64,000 nt of DNA, taken from NCBI RefSeq assembly GCF_009914755.1, contig NC_060935.1. One strand, 5' to 3'. This DNA is from the human T2T-CHM13v2.0 reference genome, Homo sapiens. Shown one piece after another: positions 1,521 through 20,780 of the stretch. The notes beneath the pieces were generated by a model. The model did not search any database, had not been told where the DNA came from, and worked only from the letters and a program-made list of their open reading frames with translations. The number at the start of each line of letters is the position of its first letter. Position 1 is the stretch's first letter. Both the position numbers and the translations under genes were made by a program.

Positions 1521-1689
1521 TCACGACATATGATGATCAACTACGGGAGACCTAAAGACCACTCTGTCCTTTTTCCGACGAATGGCTGTGTATGTCACAC
1601 TAGCAGCAAACAGAACCGCAAGAGCTCCAGTGACAATGCTGAGCCCGATCACTGTGCCTTGCAGAGCAGATGCCGTCTGTACCTCCCTC
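1521..1689 (-). pseudogene. Probable last coding exon of the ENPP7-like pseudogene (TM helix + basic stop-transfer + tail)
   Basis: Acceptor ctctggtctcttaacAG (1691-1690); ORF reads ..LQGTVIGLSIVTGALAVLFAASVTYTAIRRKKDRVVFRSPVVDHHMS*; lies 1.5 kb downstream of exon 4 on the same strand; one frameshift is needed to join it to exon 4. Confidence 0.55.
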
Positions 1690-2245
1690 CTGTTAAGAGA
1701 CCAGAGGGTTTTTAATTGCCTGATTATTAAGAGGCTGTTCTGGCTGCTCCTGGTTCCCTGGGAAGTTTTCCATCTAGCTGCCAATGAGTATTCATTATGG
1801 AAATGAAGTGTACATTGAACCCAAGAAAATGCTCACTCTAGAGAAATCTCACAGGACAAGTCGTTGAAAGCCGATTTACTACATGACCTCTTCGCCAAAT
1901 GACCCATTTGCCTAATGACCACTTTGACAAAGGATCAATTTGCTGAAAGCCAATTCGCTGAAAATCTGTTTGTGGGATGTCCTGCTTATCAGTAACTGAC
2001 AGTCAGACGCAGCTTATCCCAGGCTCCCAGTGGGATGTGGGACAGGGGAGGGGCTACAAAATAGTTGTAGCAAAACTCCAAAACTTAAAAAGCAGAAAAA
2101 TCCTCCATAATTTGGTGAATTGGTCCTTCATTTAATTAGTTTTGTACAAAAGGGACTGCTTTCTTTATGTTCACAAGGAGATCATGGGCAGTGGCTTACA
2201 AGAAGAGAAAGGATGTATATCACCCCTGCCCTCCCCTCTTTTCCT

Positions 2246-2505
2246 TTTTTTTTTTTTTAAAGCAGGAATCGGAGTGCCGTAGTACAGTCACAGCTCACTG
2301 CAGCCTCCAACTCCTGGGTTCCAGCGATCCTCCCGCCTCAGCCTCCCCAGTAGCTGGGACTACAGGCATGTGACACTACATCCAGCTAATTTATTGTAGA
2401 GACAGGGTCTCACTATGTTGCCCAGGCTGGTCTCAAGCTCCTGGCCCCAAGTGATCCTCCTACCTCATCCTCCCAAAGTCCCAAGTATGAGCCACTGTGC
2501 CCAGC
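2246..2505 (-). mobile_element. AluJ-like
   Basis: Reverse Alu body after a T tract. Confidence 0.85.
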
Positions 2506-3145
2506 CCATTACTCCTTTTTGCATGTAATTGCTTTAAGCGCTCGTTAGATCACTGGACAGTATCCAAGTCTCTCCTGGCAAAAGGAAAGATAGCTAGTGT
2601 TTGTAAACAACCCACAAAAGAAGGCAATAGCAAATTCTGAGATGATTTTATTCTTCCTTTGTATTACCCAAATTGAAGGGGTTTGAAGTCTTGAGAATTT
2701 GCAGTCTCGTTTCAGACTCTCCCTTCTCCTTTTTTCAGCATCGAGGGAACAGCAGGGTTTTGCTCCTCCCCTATGAAGAGCTTTCTGTGCTATTGAAGGA
2801 GGGCTGATTTCCGTATCTGGAAGGGGCATCTTGGAGACAGACTATACACAGTGATTTCCTTAGGACCGGAAAGATTACAGCCCAACTTTCTCTATAGAGC
2901 ACAGTCCCTTTGCCTAAAAGGCACTATGTCAAATGTTACCAGCAGGTCGAGGGATTCTCTACCTCCCGTGCTATCTGTATGGAGCTGTTGACATCTTGTT
3001 CCTGGGGCTCCAAAGCTGCTGGGAAACAGGATTGTTCTGCTAGAATTCCCTCCTCCCCACCATGAGACCCCTTTTTGATTCTTTTCTATGTCAGGACAGA
3101 GCAGACTCTGCTGACAGTTTTCTGGCAGCTGCTTTTGTGTCTCAC

Positions 3146-3382
3146 CTGGCTGCTGGTCATAAGAGTTCATGAGCATTTCCTGGGTGACTGCCAGGGAGCC
3201 GTTGTGGGTTTGGGGGTGACTCCCAGGAGCTTACACACGAATGGGTAGATGTGGATGCTGTTAAAAGGCTCGGCCAGGCGATTCCTCTTGAAATCTGGCC
3301 CGAAAGCTCTGAATATGATGTTCATGTCCATGAGGACATTATCAAAGCCATGGCTGCCTTTGTTGAAACACATTATAATTCT
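3146..3382 (-). pseudogene. ENPP7P: ENPP7-like pseudogene exon 4
   Basis: Acceptor gttttcAG|AGA (exon starts 3382), donor CCAG|GTGAGA (3145); RIIMCFNKGSHGFDNVLMDMNIIFRAFGPDFKRNRLAEPFNSIHIYPFVCKLLGVTP matches ENPP7 RINVQFNNGEHGFDNKDMDMKTIFRAVGPSF..EPFESVHVYELMCRLLGIVP; one frameshift before HNGSLAVTQEML. Confidence 0.92.
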
Positions 3383-3599
3383 CTGAAAACTAATAACAAT
3401 AAAAAAGCCATTTTAGATTCCAATCCGCTGAAAGAAAACTGTCCCTTTGTTAATGTCATGCTTGTTGGATCCATGAAGTCTTTGAGAATTTAAACTACAA
3501 GGACACTGCTCTCTGTGGTGGTGGAGAGAATACCAAGGATTTAAAGGTCTTTAAGAAAGAGAATGTAGAAAGTGTACCCATTGGAAACAGCAAGATGAT

Positions 3600-3840
3600 G
3601 ATAATCGTACTGACAGTAATAATAAGCTCAAATATATAGAGCTTACTATGTATCATGAATTGTTCTGAATGCTTCATAAATATACGTTCCCTCCTTTACC
3701 GTCATGGCAGCCCAGTAAAGGCGCCATTCCCCATTTTACAGCTGGGGAAACTGAGTTACAGAGCTTGTCTGCACTGAGTCAACAGGAGCAAATGCTAGAT
3801 CAGGTAATGGAACCCAAGCAATCTGGTTCCAGAGCCAAAT
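3600..3840 (-). mobile_element. MIR
   Basis: Core CCCCATTTTACAGCTGGGGAAACTGAG and GAACCCAAGCAATCTGGTTCCAGAGCC. Confidence 0.75.
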
Positions 3841-3997
3841 AAGTGTATTTTTTATGGTATAAATACACATACATACATTTTTAGGGGAAAGGTGGGGGTA
3901 GGATGGGATGAGGATTCTGGGTAATTGCTTGGTAAATGCCAAATACCTTTCTTGTCTGTCCTTCTTTTCAAATGATAAAATAATGTCAATTGCAACA

Positions 3998-18347: not shown

Positions 18348-18640
18348 AGGGCGGGCGTGGTGGCTCATGCCTGTAATCCCAGCATTTTGGGAGGCCAAGT
18401 TGGGCAGATAACCTGAGGTCAGGCGTTCAAGATCAGCCTGGCCAACATGGTGAAATCTCTTCTCTACAAAAATACAAAAATTAGCCGGGCATGATGGTGG
18501 GTTCCTGTAATCCTGGCTACTCAGGAGGCTGAGGCAGGAGAACTGCTTGAACCCGGGAGATGGAGGTTGCAGTGAGACGAGATTGCACCACTGCACTCCA
18601 GCCTGGAGGATAGAGTAAGACTCTGTCTGAAAAAAAAAAA
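18348..18640 (+). mobile_element. Alu (Sx-like)
   Basis: Dimer with poly(A). Confidence 0.9.
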
Positions 18641-18807
18641 ATTAGTTAAGAGAAAATTGAAAATTCAGCTCTTCATTCTCACCAGCCACATTTCAAGGGC
18701 TCAACAGCCCATGTGGGTGGCTAGCAGCTCCCATGTTGGACAGTGCAGAGTAGAGCAAGCCCACCATTGCAGAATGTTTGATTGGACCATGACTGAATAG
18801 TCTATTG

Positions 18808-19310
18808 CAGTGGTCCCCAATTTTTTTTAGCACCAAGGACCAGTTTCCACGTATTTGTGGGGGGAAGTTTCAGTATGATTCAAGTGCATTACATTTATTG
18901 TGTACTTTATTGTTATGAACATTATAATATATAATGAAATCATTATACAACTCACCATAATGTAGAATCAGTGGGAGCCCTGAGCTTGTTTTCCTGCAAC
19001 TAGATAATCCCATCTCAGGGTGGTGGGAGACAGTGACAGATCATCAGGCATTAGATTCTCATCAGGAGCACACAACCTAGATCCCTTCCACATGCAGTTC
19101 ACAATAGGGTTGGTGCTCCTATCAGAATCTAATGCCACTGCTGATCTGACAGGAGACAGAGCTCAGGCGGTAACGCTAGCCGTGGGGAGCAGCTGTAAAT
19201 ACAGATGAAGCTTCACTCATTAGCTCACTGCTCACCTCCTTCTGTACAGCCCAGTTCCTAACAGGCCACAGAACACTACTGGTCTGTGGTCTGGGGGATG
19301 GGGACCTCTG
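18808..19310 (+). mobile_element. MER1A-like hAT MITE nested in an older MER3-like hAT element
   Basis: TIRs CAGTGGTCCCCAA / TGGGGACCTCTG, perfect 8-bp TSD GTCTATTG (18800-18807 / 19311-19318). Confidence 0.85.
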
Positions 19311-19397
19311 GTCTATTGGATAACACTAGCTTTGAGGGTACTGATCAGCCAAAGAAGCACTGAGATGATTTGTCCTCCATTAATAAGAATGATGGAC

Positions 19398-19696
19398 TTT
19401 TTTTTTTTTTTTTGAGACAGAGTTTTGCTCTTGTTGCCCATGCTGGAGTGCAGTGGCACCATCTCGGCTCACTGCAACTTCTGCCTCCCAGGTTCAAGAG
19501 ATTCTCATGCCTCAGCCTCCCAAGTAGTTGGGATTACAGGTGCCTGCCACCATGCCTGGCTAATTTTTGTATTTTTAGTAGAGTCGGGGTTTTGCCATGT
19601 TGACCAGGCTGGTCTTGAATTCCTGACCTCAAGTGATCCACCTGCCTCGGTCTCCCGAAGTGCTGGGATTACAGGTGTGAGACACTGTGCCTGGCC
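19398..19696 (-). mobile_element. Alu (S-type) followed by a MIR (~19700-19900)
   Basis: Reverse dimer, TSD GATGGACTTT. Confidence 0.9.
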
Positions 19697-20628
19697 AGAT
19701 GGACTTTTTTTGAGCATTTATTTCCAAGCACCTTCCTTGCATTTTCTCAGTTAATCCTCCCAGTGACTCTTTGAAGCAGGGACTGTGACAATCGTCATTT
19801 CACAGATGGAGCAACTGAGGCACAGAGAGGAAGTCAATGGCCACGGTCGCCCAGCTGAGGAAGGATGGAGCCGGCTGAGATACTGTTCTGGGGCTCTAAC
19901 TCTGCAGCCTGCATTCTGGGCTGCTGTATTCTCCCATGTTGCTATCTGACGAGCACAGCATGGGCTCACAGTACAGACAGGAGGAACCAGCTAATAAGGA
20001 GAGGTCTGGGGTGAAGGCTGGTGCCTTGGGGAAGAAGAGAGAGGTCCCATTCTAAAGGGATGGCATTGGAAGTTCATAGTGATAAAGCAAAGCCAACAGG
20101 TTTTGGGGCTGGGAGTTAAACACACAGCTCTGGTTTCTGCCTTTTCACAGTGGTGATGAATGGGCACTGAGACCCTCTCGAGCTATAGTTGTCATCATTG
20201 CTCTTCATAGTCTGAAGGTGCATAAAATGGTCAACTTTCTTCCAAAGGGCTTTTATGCCTAAGTCTGTGGTTAGTGTATAAACAGACATTTACCGAAGTC
20301 CTGCTGGGTGCAGACGCTGTGGCCAGCCCTGAGGCTACAGTCGAGATGAAGCCAGTCTCTGTCCTCATGGAGTCCTGTCTATTGATAAGAAAAGAGAAAG
20401 CTCACTGAGCATTGACCCTGTGCCCACTGCTTTTGATGCATCTCTCATTTAATCCTTCTATCAAATCTGTGAAATAAACACATCACCATCATCCCTATTT
20501 CACATTTAGGGAAACATATGCTTAGAGAGGGTAAGTAACTTGGTCAAGATCACACAGCTTCGAACTCTCATCCCACAGGTGCAGGAATGGGAGGCAGCAG
20601 CTGGGGAAGCCAGGGTCTCTGGCAGTCC

Positions 20629-20780
20629 TTGTCTCTGAGCGGTGATCCAGAGAGAGAGAGAGAGAACACGATTGTCTCAGCACTGGGTCTTCTTCTGAGT
20701 CATCTTGAAGGAGCAATTCCAGAGCGTCTCGGTGTTAAACATCATGTTGTGAATGACTCAGTGATCTCTGGCCCAGAGAC
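20629..20780 (-). pseudogene. ENPP7P: ENPP7-like pseudogene exon 2 (not in the supplied ORF track in this frame)
   Basis: Acceptor cctcccctcctttatccccaAG|GT; reads GLWARDH*VIHNMMFNTETLWNCSFKMTQKKTQC*DNRVLSLSLWITAQRQ vs ENPP7 GKYIENHGVVHNMYYNTTSKVKLPYHATLGIQRWWDNGSVPIWITAQRQ; same intron phases; two stops; no GT donor. Confidence 0.9.

What the first reader, a model, noticed from the sequence alone, without database searches (positions are those of the whole stretch)
1521..20780. The 'ENPP7 pseudogene' looks like a distinct, lost NPP-family gene (possible RBFOX1-linked ohnologue)
Seen: three exons whose acceptor positions and phases match ENPP7 exons 2-4, but only ~50% amino-acid identity (48/93 counted by eye over the first part of exon 3 against ENPP7 from memory), with mostly conservative changes and few disablements. 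Metal ligands equivalent to D199/H203 (EPDNVGH), D246/H247 (SDHG) and H353 (GSHGFD) are kept. A primate-age copy of ENPP7 should be far more similar. Recalled: ENPP7 neighbours RBFOX3 (17q25), and the ancestral ALG1-EEF2KMT-ENPP7P block neighbours RBFOX1 (16p13.3). Inference: an ancient paralogue, possibly from whole-genome duplication, that stayed functional for a long time, died, and was then multiplied by segmental duplication.
Basis: partly seen in the sequence, partly recalled or inferred. Interest (0 to 1): 0.8.

Follow-up and report, generated by a model that had tools for sequence, protein, structure and literature searches.

The report
Dead copy of an eighth ENPP gene
The stretch labelled "ENPP7 pseudogene 15" is a broken, duplicated copy of a separate, ancient sister gene of ENPP7 that sharks, fishes, reptiles and many mammals still keep intact but humans have lost.

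Summary
On the minus strand, the window holds exons 2-5 of an NPP-type gene with ENPP7's intron positions and phases. It is only 40-53% identical to ENPP7, but 67-81% identical to intact "ENPP7-like" (ENPP7L) proteins of other vertebrates.

**Phylogeny.** Trees give two separate clades, ENPP7 and ENPP7L (97/96 and 100/100). ENPP7L runs from sharks to mammals. The human copies nest among boreoeutherian ENPP7L sequences. Forcing them into the ENPP7 clade is rejected (p-AU 0.0023).

**Copies and decay.** The human genome holds at least 14 copies, each beside a FAM86 copy. The chr16 copy lies between EEF2KMT and RBFOX1. Several lesions are shared by all or nearly all copies, so the gene most likely died before the segmental duplications. 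Later changes look neutral.

**Synteny.** ENPP7/RBFOX3 and the chr16 copy/RBFOX1 both lie head to head. This fits a whole-genome-duplication origin but does not prove it.

**Enzyme.** ENPP7L keeps the catalytic residues but has Asp or Asn where ENPP7 has choline-box Tyr166.

No paper found describes any of this; reviews count ENPP1-7. It is a new member of a known kind (a lost ohnologue, mislabelled pseudogene family). Interest is moderate.

The parts
20629..20780 (-). Exon 2 of the dead ENPP7-like gene (about aa 84-132 of panda ENPP7L). It is 152 nt against 146 nt in ENPP7; the extra 6 nt lie in a (TC)n run.
   Evidence: tblastn 67% to P0002 and 40% to Pan ENPP7 P0061. Acceptor AG and phase 1, as in ENPP7. 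Alignment of 14 copies.
20758..20760 (-). In-frame TGA in place of Gly (GGA). A marker of one subfamily of copies.
   Evidence: Present in 7 of 14 copies including the window; the chr16 copy has GGA.
20677..20679 (-). In-frame TGA in place of Trp (the WWDN motif). An old, shared nonsense mutation.
   Evidence: Present in 14 of 14 copies, chr16 included.
20649..20665 (-). (TC)n microsatellite inside exon 2. Its length differs among copies; only the window copy happens to stay in frame (+6 nt).
   Evidence: the other 13 copies carry 2-8 fewer bases here, which gives out-of-frame exon lengths.
20627..20628 (-). Lost splice donor of exon 2 (GG where ENPP7 has GT).
   Evidence: The sequence CAAGGACT is the same in all 14 aligned copies.
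10689..11313 (-). Exon 3, the large catalytic exon (aa 132-341). It holds EPDNVGH (11124-11104) and SDHG (10981-10970). There are two frame changes, near 11005-11014 and at 10928-10931.
   Evidence: Identity is 158/208 to panda ENPP7L against 100/207 to ENPP7. The first frame change is shared by all 14 copies; the second is a 1-bp deletion in 9 of 14.
10687..10688 (-). Lost splice donor of exon 3 in this copy (AT where ENPP7 has GT).
   Evidence: GGG|ataagt against ENPP7 GGG|gtgagt. Not checked in the other copies.
3117..3382 (-). Exon 4 (aa 342 to about 437). It holds GSHGFD (3358-3341) and one frame change near 3206-3215. The 3' end of the exon is not resolved.
   Evidence: tblastn 73-81% to ENPP7L proteins and 53% to ENPP7. 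Acceptor cag|AGAATT, as in ENPP7. Only 5 genomic copies keep this exon.
1521..1685 (-). Exon 5: a transmembrane helix followed by RRKK (1685-1569). In this copy the open frame reads on to a stop at 1523-1521. It lies beyond the annotated span of ENPP7P15.
   Evidence: tblastn 62-72% to the Tupaia and pangolin C-terminal regions. ORF.

Best explanation
**What it is.** The window carries exons 2-5 of one of at least 14 segmentally duplicated copies of a dead gene.
- Exon 1 lies about 10 kb beyond the window's high end.
- A probable tail exon lies about 1.9 kb before its low end.
- The parent gene was not ENPP7. It was ENPP7's ancient paralogue, annotated elsewhere as "ENPP7-like" and called ENPP7L here.

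**What ENPP7L is in species that keep it.** It is a two-metal phosphodiesterase of the NPP family with a Thr nucleophile. In most gene models it has a C-terminal transmembrane helix and a short basic cytoplasmic tail.

**History, in order.**
1. ENPP7 and ENPP7L separated before the last common ancestor of jawed vertebrates. This is inferred from the trees.
2. The split was most likely part of the vertebrate whole-genome duplications, since each gene lies head to head with an RBFOX paralogue. This is inferred and not proven.
3. ENPP7L lay between EEF2KMT and RBFOX1 on the ancestor of 16p13.3. This is shown for human only.
4. It was inactivated on the lineage to humans. The evidence is shared nonsense, frameshift, splice-donor and metal-ligand lesions.
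5. The dead gene was then carried along with FAM86 in the block that spread to chromosomes 3, 4, 7, 8, 11 and 12. The hub's gene table also lists the ALG1-like pseudogene TSSC2 beside FAM86GP here.
6. After that the copies drifted neutrally.

The window copy has no coding function.
For: **Identity.**
- Per HSP, 67-81% to panda ENPP7L P0002 against 40-53% to Pan ENPP7 P0061.
- Over exon 3, 158/208 (panda ENPP7L) against 100/207 (ENPP7).

**Homologue search.** With the exon 3 frame as query, 58 of 147 candidates passed E<=1e-5. The best were intact ENPP7-like proteins at 63-74% identity.

**Trees.**
- Careful tree of 56 rows: ENPP7L 100/100, ENPP7 97/96, the two together 100/99, window plus chr16 copy 100/100 inside ENPP7L.
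- Quick tree of 76 rows: the ENPP7L clade follows the species tree from four cartilaginous fishes to placentals, with the three human rows inside Boreoeutheria (98*).
- AU test against grouping with ENPP7: delta lnL 36.7, p 0.0023.

**A diagnostic site.** ENPP7 Tyr166 is Y in 23 of 24 ENPP7 rows. It is D (39) or N (6) in the 45 ENPP7L rows, and N in the window and the chr16 copy.

**Shared lesions.**
- Exon 1 TAC->TAG in 15 of 16 copies.
- Metal-binding Asp39 replaced in 16 of 16 copies.
- A 1-bp loss between the ATG and the SFDG motif in all 16 copies.
- Exon 2 TGG->TGA in 14 of 14 copies.
- Exon 2 donor GG in 14 of 14 copies.
- First frame change of exon 3 in 14 of 14 copies.

**Neutral drift after duplication.** The nonsynonymous fraction of 118 copy-specific changes is 0.73 in frame, against 0.70 and 0.72 in the two shifted frames.

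**Duplicon.** All 14 FAM86 Pfam hits lie beside an ENPP7P copy. The chr16 hit is 17 kb from exon 3 of the chr16 copy.

**Paralogous neighbours in human.**
- RBFOX1 C-terminal exon at chr16 7.69 Mb (+), with the chr16 copy at 5.14-5.18 Mb (-).
- RBFOX3 C-terminal exon at chr17 79.99 Mb (-), with ENPP7 at 80.63 Mb (+).
- A pair of three-exon PRELI-domain genes at chr16 5.02 Mb and chr17 78.09 Mb.
Against: - The ENPP7 clade in my sample has no cartilaginous fish. The pre-gnathostome age therefore rests on the rooting (human ENPP4/5 plus unnamed distant representatives) and on sharks lying inside ENPP7L.
- Shared lesions could in principle have been spread by gene conversion between copies rather than inherited. 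I judge this unlikely for six lesions spread over exons 1-3.
- Pairwise Nei-Gojobori dN/dS between copies averaged about 0.62, range 0.27-1.38, which taken alone would suggest constraint. The shifted-frame control shows no frame-specific signal.
- The chr16 copy, taken as the source locus, lacks exon 4. Either it lost that exon after the first duplications or it is not a perfect stand-in for the ancestor.
- In the trees the human copies join the long Phocoena row rather than Tupaia. The placement within placentals is therefore unresolved.
- No vertebrate genome other than human could be searched, so orthologous synteny is untested.
Confidence: 0.92

Rival explanations
1. The element is what its name says: a primate-age duplicate of ENPP7 itself that diverged very quickly after it was copied.
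For: - The RefSeq name.
- Intron positions and phases are the same as in ENPP7.
- ENPP7 is the best solved-structure match.
- Real copies of ENPP7 exon 1 do exist elsewhere in the genome, at chr16 33.94 and 35.34 Mb, so ENPP7 has been duplicated in part.
Against: - It is 48% identical to ENPP7 but 71-76% identical to ENPP7L of other placentals over exon 3.
- It nests in the ENPP7L clade, and the AU test rejects the ENPP7 grouping.
- It carries the ENPP7L state at site 166.
- It has the ENPP7L-type transmembrane plus RRKK exon.
Confidence: 0.01
2. It is an ancient distinct paralogue, as in the best explanation. However, it arose by a local or segmental duplication that also copied an RBFOX neighbour, not by the vertebrate whole-genome duplications.
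For: - Only two linked pairs of paralogues were checked here: RBFOX1/3 and a PRELI-domain pair.
- No ENPP7-type remnant lies near RBFOX2 on chr22 among the 79 matches.
- The timing is bounded only as 'before crown jawed vertebrates'.
Against: - 16p13 and 17q25 (with 22q12-13) are widely treated as paralogous blocks from the two rounds of duplication. This is recalled knowledge, not tested beyond two pairs.
- The head-to-head arrangement with an RBFOX gene is kept in both blocks.
- The split predates sharks in the tree.
Confidence: 0.2
3. One or more of the human copies still encodes a working protein, or the window copy works as a protein-coding gene through alternative splicing.
For: - Individual exons are open in some copies (one search lists several exon matches with no stop).
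- In chr11:67.82 a second 1-bp deletion restores the exon 3 frame.
- ENPP7P7 is transcribed as a noncoding RNA, according to passages of preprint 10.64898/2025.12.03.692127.
Against: - Every copy examined carries the exon 2 TGA and the lost exon 2 donor (14 of 14).
- 15 of 16 copies carry the exon 1 TAG. All 16 lack the metal-binding Asp39 and carry the exon 1 frameshift.
- Most copies lack exon 4.
- Substitutions show no frame-specific constraint.
Confidence: 0.01

Closest known systems
ENPP7 / NPP7, intestinal alkaline sphingomyelinase (human chr17q25.3; PDB 5TCD, 5UDY)
   Same: - Same Pfam family, PF01663.
- Same intron positions and phases for introns 1-3.
- Same metal ligands, Thr nucleophile and Asn96 in intact ENPP7L (43-45 of 45 rows).
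- 55-60% identity between intact ENPP7L and ENPP7 over exon 3.
- Both lie head to head with an RBFOX gene.
   Different: - A separate clade since before jawed vertebrates diverged.
- Choline-box Tyr166 is Asp or Asn, and Tyr109 is mostly His or Phe. The box residues are taken from passages of review PMC8808174.
- Many ENPP7L models have a transmembrane helix, RRKK and a cytoplasmic tail, whereas tetrapod ENPP7 ends in a bare hydrophobic stretch.
- The substrate of ENPP7L is unknown.
Predicted 'ENPP7-like' genes of other vertebrates (e.g. panda P0002, Tupaia P0010, cattle P0015; teleost proteins labelled Zgc:153896)
   Same: - The window element is the dead human counterpart. It is 71-76% identical to placental members over exon 3 and nests among them.
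- Same site-166 state.
- Same C-terminal transmembrane exon.
   Different: - The human copies are broken, multiplied to at least 14 loci, and named as pseudogenes of ENPP7.
- Orthology by position (EEF2KMT/RBFOX1 neighbourhood) in those species was not testable here.
FAM86 / ALG1-like interchromosomal duplicon (source at 16p13.3; copies on chromosomes 3, 4, 7, 8, 11 and 12)
   Same: The ENPP7P copies travel with it. All 14 FAM86 Pfam hits lie next to an ENPP7P copy. The hub's gene table lists FAM86GP and the ALG1-like TSSC2 just before this window.
   Different: FAM86A (EEF2KMT) and ALG1 are live genes at the source locus on chr16. The ENPP7L part appears to have been dead already when the block began to spread.

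Membership tests
NPP / type I phosphodiesterase family (Pfam PF01663) | A significant match to the family profile. | tested here: met
   the exon 3 frames score 32.7 and 24.4 bits (cut-off 23); 2 of the 6 ORFs submitted matched, and the four short ones did not. Intact Tupaia ENPP7L scores 255 bits.
NPP / type I phosphodiesterase family (Pfam PF01663) | Two-metal site ligands and the Thr nucleophile (ENPP7 numbering: D39, T75, D199, H203, D246, H247, H353). | tested here: inconclusive
   - The window keeps D199, H203, D246, H247 and H353.
- D39 lies in exon 1, outside the window. It is replaced by Q in this copy and by E or Q in all 16 copies.
- T75 is kept.
- Intact ENPP7L proteins keep all of these residues in 43-45 of 45 rows.
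ENPP7 proper (alkaline sphingomyelinase), as parent of the pseudogene | Nests within the ENPP7 clade. | tested here: not met
   Searches place it in the sister clade. The AU test rejects the ENPP7 grouping (p 0.0023).
ENPP7 proper (alkaline sphingomyelinase), as parent of the pseudogene | Cation-pi choline box of Tyr109, Tyr166 and Tyr194 (from passages of PMC8808174). | tested here: not met
   The window has F, N and Y at these three sites. ENPP7 rows have Y in 23/24, 23/24 and 24/24.
ENPP7-like (ENPP7L) clade | Nests within the clade of intact ENPP7-like proteins, in the position its species should occupy. | tested here: met
   100/100 for the clade. Inside mammals (100*) and Boreoeutheria (98*). 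Placement within placentals is unresolved.
ENPP7-like (ENPP7L) clade | Clade-specific residues and C-terminal architecture: Asp or Asn at site 166, and a transmembrane helix followed by RRKK. | tested here: met
   N at site 166. Exon 5 encodes a hydrophobic helix plus RRKK that aligns with Tupaia, cattle and pangolin.
ENPP7-like (ENPP7L) clade | Conserved position between EEF2KMT and RBFOX1 in species that have the intact gene. | not testable with these tools
   Only the human genome and prokaryotic or viral collections can be searched. The human chr16 copy does lie there.
Unitary (no functional counterpart left) pseudogene, later duplicated | No intact copy in the genome, with disabling lesions shared by the copies. 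| tested here: met
   - One search gave 79 exon matches.
- Every ENPP7L-type copy examined has the exon 2 TGA (14 of 14).
- 15 of 16 have the exon 1 TAG.
- All 14 have the first exon 3 frame change.
Ohnologue pair from the vertebrate whole-genome duplications (ENPP7 / ENPP7L) | The duplication is older than crown jawed vertebrates and younger than the split from invertebrate chordates. | tested here: inconclusive
   The lower bound is met: four cartilaginous fishes lie inside ENPP7L. The upper bound was not tested, because the outgroup representatives are unnamed and no cyclostome or invertebrate chordate was identified.
Ohnologue pair from the vertebrate whole-genome duplications (ENPP7 / ENPP7L) | The two genes lie in paralogous chromosome blocks. 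| tested here: inconclusive
   Two linked paralogue pairs were found in human, RBFOX1/RBFOX3 and a PRELI-domain pair, and both ENPP genes lie head to head with RBFOX. Wider paralogy of 16p13 and 17q25 is recalled, not tested.

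The most novel reading that the evidence does not exclude
**Claim.** Vertebrates have an eighth ENPP enzyme, ENPP7L, which the field has overlooked because it is dead in humans. It also did not appear for any primate, rodent, lagomorph, afrotherian or bird among the 120 best hits.

**What supports it.**
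- It is conserved from sharks to cattle and dogs, with a complete catalytic centre.
- It has an acidic or amide residue where ENPP7 has choline-box Tyr166.
- Many lineages have a membrane anchor whose cytoplasmic tail ends in a PDZ-ligand-like S/T-x-hydrophobic motif (24 of 45 rows).

**What would follow.**
- ENPP7L would have a substrate or head-group preference different from alkaline sphingomyelinase.
- Its repeated loss would mark a change in extracellular phospholipid or nucleotide handling.
- The human 'ENPP7P' family would be its fossil, multiplied by riding along with the FAM86 duplicon.
Probability: 0.55. Interest if true: 0.6.

Novelty: new member of a known kind. Interest (0 to 1): 0.5.

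Why it matters
- **Annotation.** It corrects an error that affects about fifteen human loci. These are relics of a different, lost gene, not pseudogenes of ENPP7.
- **The ENPP family.** It points to an unstudied member. Passages of the review PMC8808174 speak of ENPP1-7 only. The extra member is intact in farm and companion animals, reptiles, frogs, fishes and sharks, and its substrate pocket differs from ENPP7 at a key residue.
- **Genome evolution.** It gives a clean example of a lost ohnologue whose corpse was amplified by segmental duplication. The shared lesions can be used to order the duplication events.
- **Human biology.** For the human genome itself the element is non-coding debris.

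Tried and rejected
**Literature**
- One search failed on term syntax and was re-sent. 25 papers hold a search term and 23 were listed. All hits are for 'ENPP7P' in gene lists, with none for 'ENPP7-like', 'ENPP7 pseudogene', 'ENPP7L' or 'zgc 153896'.
- searched ENPP8, NPP8, enpp7.1/enpp7.2 and 'ENPP7 paralog(ue)'.
  - In the passages I read, PMC7507361 and PMC11352944 look like slips for other genes.
  - PMC4730737 states that the family has eight members but gives no data.
  - PMC13356744 lists ENPP8 in a chicken gene list without explanation.
- One search found 0 papers with both ENPP7 and 'unitary pseudogene'.
- In one search, none of the 15 listed papers contains ENPP7.
- the one supplement held for the ohnologue-database paper PMC13450315 has no ENPP7 or RBFOX entry. 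Its full tables were not available to me.
- One search found nothing on the origin of the FAM86/ALG1L/ENPP7 block.

**Other steps that led nowhere**
- Pairwise dN/dS between copies came out near 0.6. I rejected it as a sign of constraint after the shifted-frame control.
- I looked for exon 4 and 5 in the chr16 copy and found none.
- I could not fix the exon 4 to exon 5 splice junction in the window. No in-frame donor and acceptor pair was evident (by eye).
- A rough dating from excess amino-acid changes gives only 'tens of millions of years before the duplications'. I do not put a figure on it.

Full report
**1. What is in the window**

On the minus strand there are four exons of an NPP-family gene.

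| Exon | Window coordinates | Notes |
|---|---|---|
| 2 | 20780-20629 | |
| 3 | 11313-10689 | |
| 4 | 3382 to about 3117 | 3' end not resolved |
| 5 | 1685-1569 | open frame continues to a stop at 1523-1521 |

- Exon 1 lies outside the window at chr11:3545932-3546129, about window 73,930-74,130.
- A probable sixth exon, encoding the cytoplasmic tail, matched weakly (E 0.011 to the Tupaia tail) about 1.9 kb before the window's first base.
- Pfam PF01663 matched the two exon 3 frames. The other four of the six ORFs submitted were too short to score.
- The best solved structure is human ENPP7, 5tcd, at E 8.3e-25. By my own count, 48 of the 101 aligned columns are identical.
- Read base by base against the human ENPP7 gene (L015), the acceptors of exons 2, 3 and 4 sit at the same codon positions and phases.

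**2. Damage in this copy**

- Exon 2 has two in-frame TGA codons and a 6-nt longer (TC)n run.
- The exon 2 donor reads GG instead of GT.
- Exon 3 has two frame changes, and its donor reads AT.
- Exon 4 has one frame change.
- In exon 1, outside the window, there are three lesions:
  - a TAG;
  - a 1-bp loss between the start codon and the SFDG motif;
  - Gln in place of the metal-binding Asp39.

**3. It is not a copy of ENPP7**

*Homologue searches.*
- With the exon 3 frame as query, 58 of 147 candidates passed E<=1e-5.
- The best were intact proteins annotated "ENPP7-like", at 63-74% identity.
- They came from panda, pangolins, porpoise, bats, treeshrew, anteater, cattle, mole, geckos, lizards, snakes, caecilians, a newt, gar and teleosts.

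*Identity.*
- Per HSP, the window is 67-81% identical to panda ENPP7-like (P0002) and 40-53% to bonobo ENPP7 (P0061).
- Over exon 3 the figures are:

| Comparison | Identical / compared |
|---|---|
| Window vs panda ENPP7-like | 158/208 |
| Window vs Tupaia ENPP7-like | 152/208 |
| Window vs ENPP7 | 100/207 |
| Intact ENPP7-like proteins of placentals vs each other | 172-194 of 210 |
| Intact ENPP7-like vs ENPP7 | 116-126 of 209 |

*Both genes coexist.*
- A search with human ENPP7 exon 3 (621 proteins passed among 1005 candidates, 120 listed) and one with Tupaia ENPP7-like (1302 passed among 8000 scored, 120 listed) list both genes for the same species.
- Examples are Tupaia, Manis javanica, Talpa, Phocoena, Tamandua, Dasypus, Choloepus, Dromiciops, Sarcophilus, Tachyglossus, Alligator sinensis, Sphenodon, Eublepharis and Sphaerodactylus.

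**4. Trees**

*Row selection for the first tree.*
- 25 of the 58 proteins.
- 18 of the 120, plus two tandem fish proteins cut in halves.
- 12 of the 150 unnamed representatives.
- Read-through translations of three human pseudogene copies.
- Human ENPP7, ENPP4 and ENPP5, giving 65 rows in all.

*Careful tree.*
- I dropped 9 of these rows: five very long unnamed rows, the two Boleophthalmus halves, the short L001 row and a near-duplicate Astyanax row.
- The tree of the remaining 56 rows used LG+C20+F+G4.
- Support was 97/96 for ENPP7 (fish, reptiles, mammals) and 100/100 for ENPP7-like.
- The two clades join at 100/99.
- The window and chr16 copies pair at 100/100 inside mammalian ENPP7-like.

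*Larger quick tree.*
- This had 76 rows, being 84 minus 8 dropped.
- It added monotreme, marsupial, xenarthran, turtle, alligator, tuatara, frog, lungfish, coelacanth, bichir, sturgeon and three more cartilaginous fishes.
- The ENPP7-like clade (100*) follows the species tree.
- The human rows lie inside Boreoeutheria (98*).

*AU test and caveats.*
- Holding the human copies with the ENPP7 clade costs 36.7 log-likelihood units, p-AU 0.0023.
- I named this group after seeing the tree, but it is the hypothesis implied by the gene's name.
- The human copies join the long Phocoena row, so placement within placentals is unresolved.
- My ENPP7 clade contains no cartilaginous fish.

**5. The human family of copies**

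*Genome-wide matches.* A six-frame search of the assembly with panda ENPP7-like gave 79 exon matches:
- ENPP7 itself on chr17 (57% over exon 3);
- ENPP4 and ENPP5 on chr6 (33-38%);
- ENPP7-like-type copies on chr3, 4, 7, 8, 11, 12 and 16, of which 14 have exon 3.

*Link to FAM86.*
- All 14 Pfam FAM86 hits lie next to one of these copies.
- The chr16 hit (EEF2KMT, by recall) is 17 kb from exon 3 of the chr16 copy.
- The hub's table lists FAM86GP and the ALG1-like TSSC2 just before this window.

*Lesions shared across copies.*

| Lesion | Copies |
|---|---|
| Exon 1 TAC->TAG | 15 of 16 (the sixteenth has AAG) |
| Asp39 replaced | 16 of 16 (Glu in chr16 and chr4:9.61, Gln in 14) |
| Exon 1 1-bp loss | 16 of 16 |
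| Exon 2 TGG->TGA | 14 of 14 |
| Exon 2 donor GG | 14 of 14 |
| First exon 3 frame change | 14 of 14 (chr11:67.82 has a compensating 1-bp deletion) |

*Lesions limited to subsets.*
- The second exon 2 TGA is in 7 of 14 copies.
- The second exon 3 deletion is in 9 of 14 copies.
- Only 5 copies keep exon 4; chr16 does not.

*Divergence and drift.*
- The window's DNA identity to the other copies is 88.6-98.7% for exon 1, 91.4-96.7% for exon 2 and 92.7-95.0% for exon 3.
- The spread therefore happened in several waves.
- Among 118 copy-specific substitutions in exon 3, the nonsynonymous fraction is 0.73 in the true frame and 0.70 and 0.72 in the shifted frames.
- That means drift without constraint.
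- The lower pairwise dN/dS, mean about 0.62, is therefore a bias of the method.

*Conclusion and timing.*
- The simplest reading is that the gene was already dead when the block first left chr16.
- Spread of the lesions by gene conversion cannot be fully excluded.
- A majority consensus of the 14 copies is still 12-28 residues (of 210) further from the xenarthran outgroup than intact boreoeutherian proteins are.
- This suggests a substantial neutral period before the duplications. I give no date.

**6. Ancient origin and the RBFOX link**

- Pfam Fox-1_C hits mark three C-terminal exons (gene names recalled):
  - RBFOX1 at chr16 7.685 Mb (+);
  - RBFOX3 at chr17 79.992 Mb (-);
  - RBFOX2 at chr22 36.22 Mb.
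- The chr16 copy runs from 5.178 Mb down to 5.140 Mb on the minus strand.
- ENPP7 runs from 80.629 Mb up on the plus strand.
- In both cases the ENPP gene and the RBFOX gene point away from each other.
- A second pair of paralogues, three-exon PRELI-domain genes, lies at chr16 5.02 Mb and chr17 78.09 Mb. These are SEC14L5 and SEC14L1 by recall.
- With sharks inside ENPP7-like, the split predates crown jawed vertebrates.
- This is what an ohnologue pair would look like. The upper age bound and wider block paralogy were not tested, and no other vertebrate genome could be searched for synteny.

**7. What the intact enzyme looks like**

- Across 45 ENPP7-like rows, the metal ligands, Thr75 and Asn96 are kept in 43-45 rows.
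- ENPP7's choline box is Tyr109, Tyr166 and Tyr194 (passages of review PMC8808174). It is changed in ENPP7-like:

| Site | ENPP7-like rows (of 45) | ENPP7 rows (of 24) |
|---|---|---|
| 166 | Asp 39, Asn 6 | Tyr 23 |
| 109 | His 24, Phe 15, Tyr 5, Ile 1 | Tyr 23 |
| 194 | Tyr 45 | Tyr 24 |

- Many ENPP7-like models carry a C-terminal transmembrane helix, a basic stop-transfer (RRKK) and a tail ending in S/T-x-hydrophobic: 24 of 45 rows.
- Several of the remaining rows look truncated or end in a hydrophobic stretch.
- Tetrapod ENPP7 ends in a bare hydrophobic segment.
- From this I infer an active ecto-phosphodiesterase with a head-group preference different from ENPP7. This is inference only.

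**8. Is it known?**

- Automated annotation already calls the intact genes "ENPP7-like".
- I found no paper that treats them as a family member or that links the human ENPP7P loci to them. The searches were made, with passages read.
- The review's passages speak of ENPP1-7.
- The full supplementary tables of the ohnologue databases were not available to me and may list the pair for other species.

**9. Verdict**

- It is a new member of a known kind: a lost ohnologue or unitary pseudogene, amplified by segmental duplication and misnamed.
- Interest is moderate.
- The main value is the corrected annotation and the pointer to an unstudied vertebrate enzyme.

Noticed in passing
window 21694-24171, minus strand (intron 1 of the pseudogene): A HERV-K-type proviral insertion. 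ORFs match retroviral envelope TM (PF00517), HERV-K env (PF13804, E 6e-83), HERV-K Rec (PF15695) and the integrase C-terminal domain (PF00552). I observed it only. A paper on HML-2 expression (PMC12922068) mentions ENPP7P 16 times in the search listing; I did not read it.
   Followed up: partly
G000 chr16:33943964-33944212 and chr16:35341607-35341855 (L044, L043): Two fragments that hold only exon 1 align with real ENPP7 exon 1 and share its sequence states, not those of the ENPP7-like-type copies. The genome therefore holds two different kinds of 'ENPP7-related' relic.
   Followed up: partly
G000 chr16:5128001-5148000 (L009, L010): The chr16 copy, taken as the source locus, has no exon 4 or 5. 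Only 5 copies keep exon 4. Four others match just the 30 bases upstream of it, as if they share one deletion breakpoint near window 3390.
   Followed up: partly
window 20649-20665: A (TC)n run inside exon 2 varies by 2-8 bases among the 14 copies. The window copy is the only one whose exon length stays in frame.
   Followed up: yes
about 1.86-1.99 kb before window position 1 (L051, chr11:3470010-3470140): A probable last exon encoding the cytoplasmic tail. It aligns weakly with the Tupaia and cattle tails (E 0.011 and 0.029). Exons 5 and 6 both lie outside the annotated span of ENPP7P15 (3190..74095).
   Followed up: partly
proteins P0010, P0015, P0014, P0327, P0337, P0031, P0028, P0378, P0179 and others: Intact ENPP7-like proteins from sharks to mammals often end in T-x-L/F after a short basic tail, which looks like a class I PDZ ligand. 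24 of 45 rows end in [ST]x[LFVIM], against 2 of 21 ENPP7 rows. The unnamed fish-side ENPP7 representative P0182 has the same kind of tail, so this may be the ancestral state.
   Followed up: partly
protein P0005 (Phocoena sinus ENPP7-like) and P0022 (marked LOW QUALITY): The porpoise ENPP7-like row has a very long branch (0.47-0.50) and attracts the human pseudogenes in the trees. It may be a decaying gene in cetaceans.
   Followed up: no
window 11014-11182 and 8592-9210: According to the hub's table, a RefSeq 'silencer' feature overlaps pseudogene exon 3 and an 'enhancer' lies in the intron between exons 3 and 4. I did not examine them.
   Followed up: no
proteins P0059 (Boleophthalmus, 753 aa) and P0060 (Synchiropus, 844 aa): Two teleost gene models hold two ENPP7-type catalytic domains in tandem, and both halves fall in the ENPP7 clade. 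These are either tandem duplicates fused by annotation or true two-domain proteins.
   Followed up: no
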